Source of the DNA: Anaerolineae bacterium | GTDB taxonomy: Bacteria; Chloroflexota; Anaerolineae; B4-G1; SLSP01 | Assembly (NCBI GenBank): GCA_035347995.1 | Contig: DAOPQD010000001.1 | Coordinates: 46,012-110,011, forward strand | DNA: 64,000 bases | Direction: 5' to 3' | Shown: one piece after another, positions 1 through 16,817 of the stretch | How positions within the stretch are numbered: the stretch's first letter is position 1 | Layout of the letters: the number at the start of each line of letters is the position of its first letter | Translations under genes and position numbers: made by a program | Notes under the pieces: model-generated | Database searches by the model: none | What the model was told of the DNA's origin: nothing | Seen by the model: only the letters and a program-made list of their open reading frames with translations

Positions 1-980
1 CGGTCACCTTGATTTCTGAGCGTCTGGGCTATCCGGGAGTGGCGCTCTTTTTGCAAGAGGAAGCTGGCGCGGAGGACGACCCACAATCCCGTCACGGGTT
101 GCTGTTGCGCGCGGCTGCGGGCGAGCGTGCGGCGGAGCACCTGCAGGCCGGCTTGCGATTGCCGCTAGAGGGAGGAAGTCCAGCCGCGCGCAGCCTCGCA
201 CTGCGTGGGGCCCAGCTGTCGGAGGAGGTCAGTCTTCCTTTGCTGACGGCGCCGGAGGGGAATGGGCATGTGACTGAGATCGCCTTGCCGCTGCTGCGGG
301 GCGAAAAGGCCCTGGGCGCGTTGTGTATCCATACCCTCGCCGCTGAGGGCTTCAGTGCGGACGACGTGGCGATGTTGCAGACGCTGGCTGACCAGCTGGC
401 CAATGCGCTGGAGATCGCGCGCTTGCTGGCGGAAGCGGATCGTAATGTGCGCCAGCTCGAGGCGGCCATTGGAACGTACACGGTGGACTCCTGGCGGGAG
501 TACCTCACCCGCACCCGGCGCCTGCGGGCGTATCGCTACGACGGCGTGGACCTGGAAATGATGACCGAACGCACTCCTGAAGCGCAACAGGCCTGGCGTG
601 AGGGGCGCGCTGTGGTGTATCGGCAGCCGTCTTCCGATGGGACGGAAACTGAGGGAGAGGTCACGACCCTGGCCTTGCCCATCCGTGTGCGCGAGCAGGT
701 CATCGGCGTGCTCCACATTCGCTCACGGGGGGAGCAGCTGGCTGCGGATACGCTGCCCCTCCTTGAAGAAATCGGCTCACGGTTGGGGCAGGCGCTCGAG
801 GTGGCCCGCTTGTTGGAAGACACCCGGGCGCGGGCGGCGCGCGAACAACTGGCCGGCGCCATCTCTGGACGGGTGCGTGCTGAAATGGAAGTGGAATCGC
901 TGTTGGAACGGGCCTTGCGTGAGCTCAGCCAGGCGCTCGGCGTGCGCCGGGCGGCCGTGGAATTGGAAGTGAAGGAGTAG
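1..980 (+). CDS. GAF domain-containing sensor protein, C-terminal part (5' partial; gene begins upstream of the window)
   Basis: The reading frame is open from base 3 with no upstream stop; the track ORF 9..980 starts at a TTG. It contains GAF-like modules and the conserved C-terminal cap motif ...LLEDTRARAAREQLAGAISGRVRAEMEVESLLERALRELSQALGVRRAAVELEVKE shared with the following paralogs. An RBS for the next gene (GAAGGAG) lies at its 3' end. Confidence 0.6.
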   Translation, partial: VTLISERLGYPGVALFLQEEAGAEDDPQSRHGLLLRAAAGERAAEHLQAGLRLPLEGGSPAARSLALRGAQLSEEVSLPLLTAPEGNGHVTEIALPLLRGEKALGALCIHTLAAEGFSADDVAMLQTLADQLANALEIARLLAEADRNVRQLEAAIGTYTVDSWREYLTRTRRLRAYRYDGVDLEMMTERTPEAQQAWREGRAVVYRQPSSDGTETEGEVTTLALPIRVREQVIGVLHIRSRGEQLAADTLPLLEEIGSRLGQALEVARLLEDTRARAAREQLAGAISGRVRAEMEVESLLERALRELSQALGVRRAAVELEVKE

Positions 981-983
981 GCC

Positions 984-16300: not shown

Positions 16301-16817
16301 CTCTATCCTCGCCGAGCGCGACAAAGGCCTCAGTATGGGCGTGGCGGACTATCTGGTGAAGCCTATTCTGGAGCAAGATTTGTTGAGCGCGTTGGCCCGG
16401 CTTTCCCATGACCTTACCAAGACGCATGTGCTGGTGGTGGACGACAATCCAGATGATCGGAACCTGCTTGAACGTATATTGGCTGATGCTGGCTACATCG
16501 TCGCTACTGCCAGCAACGGCGTGGAAGCGATTGCGGATCTGGCTCTGTCGCCGCCCGACCTGGTAGTGCTCGACCTGATGATGCCCGACGTGGATGGCTT
16601 CGCCGTCCTGGAGAACATGAAGGCGCGCCCGGAGACCTGCGATATTCCCGTCATCGTTGCCACGGCCAAGGAACTCAGTGCGGCTGAGCGGGCCGCCTTG
16701 ACGGTGCGGGTGCAGGCTCTGTTGCAGAAGGGCCTCTTTGACCAGGAGCGCCTCTTAGAGGATGTGGCAGCGGCGTTGGCGCGGTTGGGCCCGGCGCGTC
16801 AAGATACCCATCGGTGA
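10323..16817 (+). CDS. Giant cytoplasmic hybrid sensor histidine kinase: about ten GAF modules, PAS, HisKA, HATPase_c and two receiver domains
   Basis: Single 2164-aa ORF, ATG 14 nt after the upstream stop. No TM segments. Duplicated GAF-PAS-GAF module ([28 protein letters not shown].. / [28 protein letters not shown]..). PAS is [25 protein letters not shown].., and the H-box is [21 protein letters not shown]. G-boxes are [34 protein letters not shown]. REC1 carries [10 protein letters not shown]...[12 protein letters not shown] and REC2 carries [10 protein letters not shown]...[12 protein letters not shown]. Confidence 0.85.
   Translation: [2164 protein letters not shown]

What the first reader, a model, noticed from the sequence alone, without database searches (positions are those of the whole stretch)
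1..16817. Operon-like supercluster of five GAF-only or GAF-rich sensor proteins culminating in a 2164-aa soluble hybrid kinase
Six consecutive co-directional genes encode three GAF proteins with no output domain (two membrane-anchored; the first is 5' partial), a periplasmic binding lipoprotein, and a TM-HAMP protein with about 8 GAF modules but no output domain. They are followed, 14 nt later, by a cytoplasmic protein with about 10 GAF modules, PAS, HisKA-HATPase and two REC domains but no membrane anchor. The stop/start overlaps at 2732 and 4492/4494 indicate co-translation of the first four.

The arrangement suggests a split sensory system. Membrane sensors, including one with a periplasmic domain and HAMP, carry only GAF modules. 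The only kinase and receiver output sits on a separate soluble giant protein that shares the same GAF subtype. It is unlikely that output-less multi-GAF membrane proteins work alone, so GAF-GAF heteromerisation with the kinase is a plausible signalling route that is not, to my knowledge, a described architecture.
Basis: partly seen in the sequence, partly recalled or inferred. Interest (0 to 1): 0.65.

Follow-up and report, generated by a model that had tools for sequence, protein, structure and literature searches.

The report
Kinase-less GAF sensor array feeding one kinase
The region is the last third of a long, conserved gene array in Anaerolineae bacteria in which many different membrane sensors that lack any output enzyme share one cytoplasmic GAF module and a peculiar 48-residue tail, and are always encoded with a single large soluble histidine kinase, which suggests a previously undescribed way of funnelling many signals into one kinase.

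Summary
Window 1-16817 carries six co-directional genes: three output-less GAF proteins, a binding-protein lipoprotein, a TM-HAMP multi-GAF protein and a 2164-aa soluble hybrid kinase.

- In a 94%-identical relative the array runs at least 16.7 kb further upstream, giving at least 11 output-less genes plus the binding protein and kinase.
- The same kind of array occurs in 165 fetched loci, almost all Anaerolineae: 739 such genes, all co-directional, none fused to a kinase.
- Of 579 neighbour pairs, 437 overlap or lie within 50 nt.
- 48 of 56 arrays with 3' view end in a hybrid kinase.

Every output-less member has a variable input domain plus a conserved C-terminal module. That module is a GAF, a reduced 'W' mini-GAF, and a 48-aa 'cap' equal to the first helix and strand of a further GAF. 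The window's kinase contains the same GAF-W core.

Many related arrays also encode a ParA-type ATPase, a second kinase, single receivers and a PLP-enzyme-receiver protein.

Genomics strongly supports a many-sensors-to-one-kinase system. Direct GAF/cap-kinase contact is inferred, not shown. I found no published description.

The parts
3..980 (+). g1: 3' end (325 aa) of a 1350-aa soluble multi-GAF/PAS output-less protein. The window holds its last GAF, the W-module (aa 150-277) and the cap (aa 278-325, nt 834-977).
   Evidence: Pfam GAF hits. Custom HMMs. Full-length version at L004 4197-8249 with 7 GAF + PAS.
984..2732 (+). g2: membrane sensor, about 5-6 TM helices (aa 45-210), coiled coil, GAF (250-407), W-module (408-528), cap (529-576, nt 2568-2711), short acidic tail. 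No output domain.
2732..4492 (+). g3: paralogue of g2. 6 TM helices (aa 26-200), long helix, GAF (253-377), 52-residue connector helix, W mini-GAF (430-527), cap (528-572, nt 4313-4447).
   Evidence: Pfam. AF2 models at pLDDT 80 and 88. The cap aligns to the N-terminal 55 aa of cyanobacteriochrome/phytochrome GAF domains in the PDB.
4494..5588 (+). g4: lipoprotein with periplasmic binding-protein fold (PF04392 ABC_sub_bind). Always sits directly before the g5-type gene in related arrays and is fused to GAF-W-cap in other array members.
   Evidence: Lipobox LLASAC. Pfam 35 bits, cutoff 25.9. Synteny PBP, then long cap protein, then kinase in at least 13 loci. Fused versions at L004 528-2774 and L001 179-2500.
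5589..5829 (.). 241-nt gap between g4 and g5, the only sizeable gap in the array. It holds three 22-nt-spaced palindrome-like sites GTTnCC..GGAAC at 5656-5712. Possibly an internal regulated promoter.
   Evidence: No consensus sigma-70 promoter found. Function not tested.
5830..10308 (+). g5: TM, periplasmic loop (aa 37-163), TM, HAMP (189-241), GAF (267-430), W (432-547), five more GAFs, cap (about aa 1414-1457, nt 10069-10200), basic/acidic tail. No output domain.
   Evidence: Orthologues in L001, L002 and L010-L017.
10323..16817 (+). g6: soluble hybrid histidine kinase. GAF1-5, PAS (873-991), GAF6 (1006-1168) + W (1172-1307) (nt 13338-14243), GAF8, GAF9, HisKA (1664-1731), HATPase_c (1778-1886), REC1 (about 1915-2028), REC2 (2036-2148). 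No HPt domain.
   Evidence: Pfam and NCBIfam. The W+cap profile matches aa 1170-1360. Catalytic motifs read directly from the sequence.
16843..16871 (+). Near-consensus sigma-70-type promoter (TTGACA-17-TACAAT, 11 of 12) just after the g6 stop, ahead of a small ferredoxin gene. Marks the 3' end of the array's transcription unit.
   Evidence: Consensus match only.

Best explanation
The region is the 3' part of a many-sensors-to-one-kinase signalling array typical of Anaerolineae.

**Architecture.** Each array gene encodes a kinase-less transducer. It has a lineage-variable input domain and a conserved cytoplasmic tri-module.
- The input can be a multi-TM domain, a fused or separate periplasmic binding protein, 4HB/TarH-HAMP, dCache-HAMP, MASE11 or soluble PAS/GAF.
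- The tri-module is GAF-A, a long connector helix, a reduced 5-stranded mini-GAF (W), and a 48-residue cap. The cap is the first helices and strand of a GAF that is otherwise missing.

**Proposed mechanism.**
1. Like tandem-GAF and phytochrome sensory modules, the transducers are probably parallel dimers with a helical spine that carries the input signal to the C-terminal end.
2. They have no enzyme of their own. The conserved end (W helix plus cap) is proposed to contact the single co-encoded soluble hybrid kinase g6.
3. g6 carries the same GAF-A-W core at aa 1006-1307, followed by the complete GAF that the cap is a stump of.
4. Contact with the transducers would raise or lower g6 autophosphorylation and phosphotransfer to its two receiver domains.
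5. g4 is proposed to be a ligand-binding co-sensor for the periplasmic loop of g5.

**Shown:** domain content, array structure, conservation, shared modules, predicted fold.
**Inferred:** dimerisation, contact with the kinase, direction of signal flow, the g4-g5 partnership.
For: **Array structure**
- 165 loci hold 739 cap-ending genes. All are co-directional and none is fused to a kinase. 240 of 579 neighbour pairs overlap and 197 lie within 1-50 nt.
- 48 of 56 non-redundant arrays with at least 3 kb of 3' view are followed on the same strand by a hybrid kinase.
- Gene order g2-g3-g4-g5-g6 is kept at 37-69% identity.

**One common module behind varied inputs**
- Inputs differ between members: MASE11, dCache_1, HAMP, TarH/4HB, Peripla_BP and ABC_sub_bind.
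- Across 73 diverse paralogues, GAF-A (2.19 bits), the W C-terminal helix (2.14) and the cap helices (2.0-2.1) are the most conserved parts. The tail scores 0.46.
- 6 of 16 invariant columns of the g3 family lie in the cap.

**The cap is a truncated GAF**
- It aligns without gaps across paralogues.
- It matches residues 2-68 of solved cyanobacteriochrome/phytochrome GAF domains: 8k9o E 9e-6, 6ozb 7e-4, 2lb5.

**The kinase shares the core**
- Each protein, g6 included, has exactly one full W-module directly after a GAF-A-type GAF.
- The full-length g1 protein aligns with g6 aa 512-1171 at 44% identity overall, up to 72% locally.

**Fold**
- The AF2 model of g3 224-586 has pLDDT 88 and pTM 0.70.
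- It resembles the tandem-GAF segments of PDE2A and PDE6 and phytochrome GAF-PHY, which are helical-spine dimers.

**W helix feeds a kinase core elsewhere**
- In some related kinases the helix leaving W runs straight into the HisKA domain (L123, L129). The cap's first helix therefore occupies the position of a signalling helix.
Against: - No direct evidence of any sensor-kinase contact. No multimer prediction could be run.
- In about half of the related arrays the terminal kinase lacks a recognisable W-module. A W-W or cap-W pairing therefore cannot be universal.
- The cap strand is not formed, and the cap helices have only pLDDT 60-74, in monomer models.
- The window's array has a 241-nt gap before g5-g6. 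The upstream sensors and the kinase may be separate transcription units.
- No response regulator with an output domain and no HPt lies next to g6, so the pathway's output is unknown.
- 8 of 56 arrays showed no kinase within 3 kb. Some of these are detection or view limits.
Confidence: 0.55

Rival explanations
1. Kinase-less decoys. The cap proteins are truncated paralogues of the kinase's sensory region. They form mixed, signalling-dead dimers with g6, or titrate it. They act mainly as input-controlled inhibitors rather than activating sensors.
For: - The architecture is that of a kinase cut just after the first strand of the GAF that follows W.
- g1 full length shares 44-72% identity with long stretches of g6.
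- Related kinases exist in which W leads directly into HisKA.
Against: - This is a sub-case of the main model, with the same contact but opposite sign. Nothing here distinguishes the sign.
- Up to 11 or more different decoys per kinase, each with classical extracytoplasmic input domains, fits sensing better than simple titration.
Confidence: 0.15
2. Independent transducers with another partner. The cap is a docking element for a protein not encoded here, or, in other lineages, for the ParA-type ATPase or the upstream dCache-HAMP-GAF kinase. Adjacency to g6 would reflect only co-regulation.
For: - Many arrays encode further candidates: a ParA-type ATPase, a second kinase, single REC proteins and a PALP-REC protein.
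- About half of the terminal kinases lack W.
Against: - The window lineage shows none of these extra genes within view.
- It still keeps the sensors and the kinase tightly linked.
- The terminal hybrid kinase is the most constant partner, in 48 of 56 arrays.
Confidence: 0.17
3. The N-terminal membrane domains are effectors, not inputs. The cytoplasmic GAFs bind a common small ligand, such as a cyclic nucleotide, and regulate a channel- or transporter-like TM domain. The proteins would then need no kinase.
For: - GAF-A is very conserved across paralogues, as expected for one common ligand.
- The 6-TM domains of g2 and g3 have no confident family assignment. The only hit is a weak 6TM_PilS match at E 0.023.
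Against: - Most paralogues carry classical sensor inputs: dCache, TarH/4HB, HAMP and periplasmic binding domains.
- Some are fully soluble, such as g1 full length and the 420-aa protein of L087.
- This model does not explain the conserved cap or the constant kinase.
Confidence: 0.06
4. Decaying duplicates. The output-less genes are remnants of tandemly duplicated kinases that lost their catalytic half and have no function.
For: - Tandem paralogy.
- A truncation point inside a GAF domain.
Against: - All reading frames are intact.
- The same truncation point is kept in 739 genes across orders of Anaerolineae.
- The cap is among the most conserved segments.
- The junctions between genes are tight, overlapping or within 50 nt.
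Confidence: 0.02

Closest known systems
Chemoreceptor (MCP)-CheA arrays with ParC/PpfA-type positioning ATPases
   Same: - Many paralogous receptors with diverse inputs (4HB/TarH, dCache, HAMP, PBP-assisted) share one conserved cytoplasmic module and feed one soluble kinase.
- Related Anaerolineae arrays encode a ParA/MinD-type ATPase, as chemosensory clusters do (own knowledge; reviews PMC5706961, PMC11407121).
   Different: - No MCPsignal domain, CheW or CheA.
- The shared module is GAF + mini-GAF + cap.
- The kinase is a HisKA-type hybrid kinase.
- No methylation enzymes.
- Lattice formation is entirely unproven.
Stressosome (RsbR paralogues, RsbS, RsbT kinase)
   Same: Several paralogous sensors with variable N-terminal domains and a conserved C-terminal domain jointly control one kinase (PMC9765535, PMC9237128).
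   Different: - No STAS domains.
- Most members are membrane proteins.
- The partner is a histidine kinase, not a serine kinase.
Tandem-GAF and phytochrome GAF-PHY sensory modules (PDE2A 1mc0, PDE6, bacteriophytochromes, SyB-Cph1 8w26)
   Same: The predicted fold of GAF-A, long helix and second reduced GAF-like domain, with helices that form a dimer spine. The cap matches the N-terminus of phytochrome/cyanobacteriochrome-type GAFs.
   Different: - In those proteins an enzyme domain follows on the same chain. Here the chain stops after one helix-helix-strand stump.
- No conserved bilin-binding Cys is seen in the consensus.
- The ligand is unknown.
Kinases that rely on separate co-sensors (LuxP-LuxQ, TorT-TorS, BceAB-BceS, UhpC-UhpB)
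   Same: - Sensing and kinase activity lie on different polypeptides.
- A periplasmic binding protein (g4) sits next to a membrane transducer (g5).

Basis: own knowledge.
   Different: - Those systems have one accessory sensor per membrane kinase.
- Here up to 11 or more transducers, each with its own input and a common GAF module, accompany a soluble kinase.

Membership tests
GAF domain superfamily (Pfam PF01590/PF13185/PF13492) | Significant match to GAF profile HMMs above the curated cutoffs | tested here: met
   g1, g2, g3, g5 and g6 score 64-329 bits against cutoffs of 22-29.
GAF domain superfamily (Pfam PF01590/PF13185/PF13492) | Complete 6-stranded GAF fold in every module | tested here: not met
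   - The W-module matches only the C-terminal half of GAF profiles. It is modelled as a 5-stranded mini-domain.
- The cap is only the first helix and strand.
Hybrid two-component histidine kinase (g6) | HisKA with phospho-acceptor His, HATPase_c with N/G boxes, receiver domain(s) with the acceptor Asp | tested here: met
   - HisKA 68.6 bits, HATPase_c 98.9 bits, Response_reg 139.8 bits in 2 copies.
- Motifs [31 protein letters not shown], and the LDILMPD and LDLMMPD aspartates are read.
Hybrid two-component histidine kinase (g6) | HPt domain or a cognate output response regulator nearby | tested here: not met
   - No HPt hit in g6.
- Downstream genes are a ferredoxin, a PHP protein and a phosphodiesterase-like protein.
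- The PALP-REC protein of related arrays is absent.
Chemoreceptor array (MCP/CheA/CheW) | MCPsignal cytoplasmic domain; CheA (Hpt-P2-dimerisation-HATPase-CheW) and CheW | tested here: not met
   No MCPsignal, CheW or CheA-type hits in any array protein. There are only weak HAMP-region similarities to MCPs.
Stressosome | STAS domains in RsbR/RsbS-like proteins and an RsbT-type kinase | tested here: not met
   No STAS or RsbT-like hits.
Phytochrome/cyanobacteriochrome photoreceptors | Bilin-binding Cys in the GAF or PAS domain and a chromophore pocket | tested here: inconclusive
   - Only the cap and W helix resemble these GAFs.
- No conserved Cys appears in the family consensus.
- Pocket residues were not analysed.
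Periplasmic binding-protein co-sensor (g4) | Signal peptide or lipobox plus a type-I PBP fold | tested here: met
   - Lipobox LLASAC.
- PF04392 at 35 bits, cutoff 25.9, covering only the C-terminal part of the profile.
Periplasmic binding-protein co-sensor (g4) | Physical interaction with the periplasmic domain of the adjacent transducer | not testable with these tools
   - The only evidence is conserved adjacency of g4 and g5.
- Fused PBP-GAF-W-cap paralogues also exist.
ParA/MinD positioning ATPase partner | Deviant Walker A ATPase encoded within the array | tested here: not met
   - Present in 68 of 165 related loci.
- None in the 64-kb window or in the visible part of window-type loci.
- The 5' end of the source array could not be reached.

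The most novel reading that the evidence does not exclude
These arrays encode a GAF-based counterpart of the chemoreceptor lattice.

- Dozens of kinase-less transducers and one hybrid histidine kinase would assemble through their common GAF-W core into a higher-order membrane-associated complex.
- The cap would act as a trans-complementing plug. It is an orphan GAF helix and strand that docks into the kinase or into a neighbouring transducer.
- In many lineages a dedicated ParA-type ATPase would position the complex.

This would be a third kind of bacterial supramolecular signalling array, after chemosensory arrays and stressosomes.
Probability: 0.2. Interest if true: 0.9.

Novelty: new variant of a known kind. 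Interest (0 to 1): 0.72.

Why it matters
Two-component systems are usually read as one sensor kinase paired with one regulator. Output-less PAS/GAF proteins are usually left as 'function unknown'.

Here, hundreds of loci across a whole bacterial class show a regular design. Many different inputs, one common transducer module with a defined truncated-GAF end, and one soluble kinase.

If the sensors do act through the kinase, several things follow:
- It would be a new solution to signal integration.
- It would give a function to a large set of 'GAF domain-containing proteins' in Chloroflexota genomes.
- It would offer a natural modular scaffold for sensor engineering (swap the input, keep the GAF-W-cap).
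- It would make the old question of how GAF domains pass signals between polypeptides directly testable.

The ParA link would extend cargo positioning by ParA/MinD ATPases to histidine-kinase complexes.

Tried and rejected
**Searches that gave little**
- A homologue search with W+cap alone returned only 7 fragments because of word-index limits. I replaced it with a 73-sequence profile.
- The exhaustive representative search with the W+cap profile gave 114,597 hits at E 0.001 and 14,277 at E 1e-30. It is dominated by giant multi-GAF proteins whose repeats add up, so it is not a specific census. It does show output-less multi-GAF proteins up to about 2.6 kaa that end in W+cap.
- Pfam and NCBIfam have no model for the g2/g3 TM domain, the g5 periplasmic loop, W or the cap.

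**Ideas tested and dropped**
- I thought the full-length g1 protein might be collinear with the sensory region of g6, because PAS and W lie at nearly the same residue numbers. The best alignment is out of register (g1 1-700 with g6 512-1171), so I do not claim collinearity.
- The window ORF 18416-20110 (564 aa) is not the PALP-REC protein found after the kinase in other arrays.
- The 1494-aa ORF at 45221-49705 has the same length as g5 but is a BatA/VWA protein.
- Cis-complementation of W by the cap (a circularly permuted GAF) is not supported by the AF2 monomer models. The cap is modelled as helices and its strand is unformed.

**Not reached**
- The 5' end of the array in the source contig. 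A 94% relative gave 16.7 kb more but still no start.

**Literature**
- Five full-text searches found no description of such arrays.
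Full report
**1. 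What is in the window**

Positions 1-16817 carry six genes on the + strand.

| Gene | Coordinates | Content |
|---|---|---|
| g1 | 3-980, 5' cut | GAF + second GAF-like module, no output |
| g2 | 984-2732 | N-terminal block of about six hydrophobic helices, GAF + second GAF-like module, no output |
| g3 | 2732-4492 | as g2 |
| g4 | 4494-5588 | lipoprotein, lipobox LLASAC, ABC_sub_bind-type binding fold (35 bits, cutoff 25.9) |
| g5 | ATG 5830-10308 | TM, about 127 periplasmic residues, TM, HAMP, seven GAF-type modules, no output |
| g6 | 10323-16817 | soluble; nine GAF-type modules, one PAS, HisKA, HATPase_c, two receivers, all catalytic motifs intact |

- Domain content comes from Pfam, NCBIfam, a hydropathy scan and an HMM built from the window's own modules.
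- Junctions are a 3-nt gap, a 1-nt overlap, a 1-nt gap, a 241-nt gap and a 14-nt gap.
- A near-consensus promoter (TTGACA-17-TACAAT) lies directly after g6, ahead of a ferredoxin gene.
- The rest of the window is unrelated: aldehyde ferredoxin oxidoreductase, PMT_2 glycosyltransferases, ClpB and BatA/VWA.

**2.

- Every output-less protein ends in the same way.
- The order is a well-conserved GAF (GAF-A, consensus ERFGFYHVGIFLLD...LPxTRSExALPL), then a module I call W, then a 48-residue cap, then a short unconserved acidic tail.
- W has an invariant Trp, a GYxY hairpin, and then the C-terminal half of a GAF.
- The cap consensus is LLEETQRRAxRExxxxEIxxRxRxSxDxExxLxTAxxELGxALxxxxxxVxL.
- The cap aligns without gaps among paralogues.
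- It matches the first 55 or so residues (connecting helix, helix 1, strand 1) of solved cyanobacteriochrome and phytochrome GAF domains: 8k9o E 9e-6, 6ozb 7e-4, 2lb5, 8w26. It is a GAF stump.
- Each protein of the cluster has exactly one full W-module, always directly after a GAF-A-type GAF. This includes g5 (aa 432-547) and the kinase g6 (aa 1172-1307).
- In g5 and g6, W is followed by a complete GAF where the short proteins have only the cap.
- Pairwise scores group GAF-A of g1, g2, g3 and g5 with g6 modules 5 and 6, and group the five W modules together.
- They also pair g5 modules 3, 4 and 7 with g6 modules 9, 2 and 8.
- The full-length g1 protein aligns with g6 512-1171 at 44% identity, up to 72% locally.

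**3. Predicted structure**

- Full-length g3 with 26 homologues gave pLDDT 80: six TM helices, a long helix, GAF, a long helix and a partly ordered W.
- g3 224-586 with 66 homologues gave pLDDT 88 and pTM 0.70.
- That model shows GAF-A and a 52-residue connector helix.
- W appears as a hairpin, a short helix and a three-stranded meander. This is a 5-stranded mini-GAF.
- Its last helix runs on into cap helix 1, then a kink, then cap helix 2.
- The cap strand is not formed, and cap confidence is 60-74.
- Foldseek places the model with the tandem-GAF segments of PDE2A and PDE6 and with phytochrome GAF-PHY modules. By established knowledge these are parallel dimers that signal along a helical spine.

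**4. The array is much larger and is conserved**

- The window protein g3 occurs identically on a 277-kb JGI contig and in two NCBI Anaerolineae MAGs. There, g1 is a 1350-aa soluble protein with 7 GAFs and a PAS.
- It is preceded by further cap genes of 472, 748 and 750 aa. The 748-aa protein carries a fused binding-protein domain, and a faint ABC_sub_bind hit suggests the 750-aa protein may too.
- A 94%-identical relative (L087) shows five more cap genes upstream: HAMP, soluble, Peripla_BP-fused and TarH-HAMP types, plus one partial.
- The array in this lineage therefore has at least 11 cap genes plus g4 and g6, over at least 33 kb. Its 5' end was not reached.
The best 78 loci are, with one exception labelled Blastopirellula marina, Chloroflexota. 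Where a lower rank is given it is Anaerolineales, Caldilineaceae, Thermoflexales, Ornatilinea, Longilinea, Anaerolinea or Villigracilis.
- A metagenome scan added 79 loci.
- I annotated all 165 loci with HMMs for GAF, W, cap, kinase core, receiver, g4 and ParA.

| Measure | Result |
|---|---|
| Cap-ending genes | 739, all co-directional |
| Fused to a kinase | none |
| Genes per 21-kb view | median 4, up to 11 |
| Neighbour pairs that overlap | 240 of 579 |
| Neighbour pairs 1-50 nt apart | 197 of 579 |
| Arrays with 3' view followed by a hybrid kinase on the same strand | 48 of 56 |
| Arrays with 5' view preceded by receiver, kinase or ParA genes | 13 of 13 |

- The 3' block g2-g3-g4-g5-g6 is kept in order where g3 is only 37-69% identical (L001, L002, L010-L017, L019, L023, L027).
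- Profile searches returned about 70 family members. All are output-less and all are named only 'GAF domain-containing protein'. There is a sharp score drop to ordinary tandem-GAF phosphatases, kinases and cyclases, none of which ends in a cap.

**5. Extra components in related arrays**

- 68 of 165 loci encode a ParA/MinD-type ATPase of about 261 aa (AAA_31, CbiA, MipZ) inside the array.
- It lies either directly before the terminal kinase or directly after an upstream dCache-HAMP-GAF kinase. In the first case the kinase lacks W.
- Complete examples (L152, L123) read: REC, REC, dCache-HAMP-GAF kinase, ParA, three cap genes, hybrid kinase. In L123 a PLP-enzyme (PALP) fused to a receiver follows the hybrid kinase, as it does in L131, L139, L122 and L099.
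- None of these extras is visible in the window lineage. Its 5' end is unknown.

**6. Interpretation**

- The inputs vary: multi-TM, MASE11, dCache, TarH/4HB, HAMP, three kinds of binding-protein domain, and soluble PAS/GAF.
- GAF-A, the W helix and the cap are the most conserved segments (2.0-2.2 bits, against 0.46 for the tail).
- 6 of 16 invariant columns of the g3 family lie in the cap.
- This is the pattern expected for many receptors that share one transducer module and one partner.
- The only enzyme constantly co-encoded is the hybrid kinase. In the window lineage it contains the same GAF-A-W core.
- In some related kinases the helix that leaves W runs directly into HisKA (L123, L129). 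The first cap helix therefore sits where a signalling helix to a kinase core would be.
- I conclude that these are kinase-less transducers acting on the co-encoded kinase through their GAF-W-cap end. The most likely form is mixed dimers or higher-order assemblies along the homologous helical spine.
- g4 is most simply a ligand-binding co-sensor of g5. The pair is always adjacent, and the same fold is fused to other array members.
- All contact steps are inference. A dominant-negative (decoy) version, a different partner (ParA or the second kinase), effector TM domains, and decaying duplicates are the rivals. Conservation excludes the last.

**7. Comparison with known systems and novelty**

- In logic the array resembles chemoreceptor-CheA arrays, including the ParA-type partner (PMC5706961, PMC11407121), and stressosomes with RsbR paralogues (PMC9765535, PMC9237128).
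- It fails their membership tests. It has no MCPsignal, CheA or CheW, and no STAS or RsbT.
- In fold it resembles tandem-GAF and GAF-PHY modules but lacks the enzyme on the same chain.
- Kinases with a single accessory sensor are known. An array of up to 11 or more transducers with a common GAF module and a conserved truncated-GAF end is not described in the library I could search.
- There is also no Pfam or NCBIfam model for W or the cap.
- I rate it a new variant of a known kind: two-component signalling with separate sensors. There is a minority chance that it is a new kind of supramolecular array.

**8. Limits**

- No multimer modelling and no access to model coordinates.
- The family census is approximate.
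- The 5' end of the source array, the ligands and the downstream regulator are unknown.
- Nearly all genomes are MAGs, so occasional mis-binning is possible. One locus is labelled Blastopirellula.

Noticed in passing
L033 4949-5734; L131 15335-16165; L152 8181-9131 (68 of 165 related loci): A ParA/MinD-type ATPase of about 261 aa (AAA_31/CbiA/MipZ, N-terminus SNEKGGVAKTT) is embedded in many related arrays. It usually sits directly before the terminal hybrid kinase or after an upstream dCache-HAMP-GAF kinase. None is seen in the window.
   Followed up: partly
L131 20320-21996; L123 18287-19981; L099 19788-21479: A 558-564-aa protein made of a PLP-dependent enzyme domain (PALP) with a C-terminal receiver domain follows the hybrid kinase in several related arrays. 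It is a possible enzymatic output of the pathway. The window's 564-aa ORF at 18416-20110 is unrelated.
   Followed up: partly
window 5656-5712: Three palindrome-like sites (GTTACCAGTGCGGAAC, GTTTCCAATTGGGAAC, GTTTCCCACCTGG) spaced 22 nt apart lie in the 241-nt gap before g5. A second pair of 22-nt-spaced repeats (TGCGAACGT-like) lies at 5744-5783. They look like operator sites for an unknown regulator.
   Followed up: no
window 16843-16871 and about 16942-17170: A near-consensus sigma-70-type promoter (TTGACA-17-TACAAT) lies immediately after the kinase stop codon, ahead of a small 4Fe-4S ferredoxin gene.
   Followed up: no
window 10201-10305 (g5 tail); L001 13140-17690; L002 12885-16832: After the cap, g5 orthologues keep a short basic motif (RRKKPTGEL / VKKPGTGEL) followed by an acidic tail. 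The other cap proteins lack it.
   Followed up: no
L123 14434-18282; L129 4995-7910; L106 8779-12546: - In L123 and L129 the W-module helix runs directly into HisKA with no intervening GAF.
- The kinase in L106 has three consecutive W-modules.
   Followed up: partly
L007 1029-1307, 9331-9990, 14149-15873: Small or unassigned genes are interspersed in one distant array: a 92-aa acidic protein after ParA, a DUF6989 membrane protein, and a 574-aa protein without Pfam hits.
   Followed up: no
window 45221-49705: A 1494-aa ORF of the same length as g5 is an unrelated BatA/VWA (aerotolerance-type) protein. The equal length is coincidence.
   Followed up: yes
window 23299-25399 and 33268-38390: At least three PMT_2-type glycosyltransferase genes (23906-25399 on the + strand; 33268-35535 and 35532-38390 on the - strand) lie in the window, together with an aldehyde ferredoxin oxidoreductase (21046-23247, - strand) and ClpB (30269-32845). 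They are not linked to the array.
   Followed up: no
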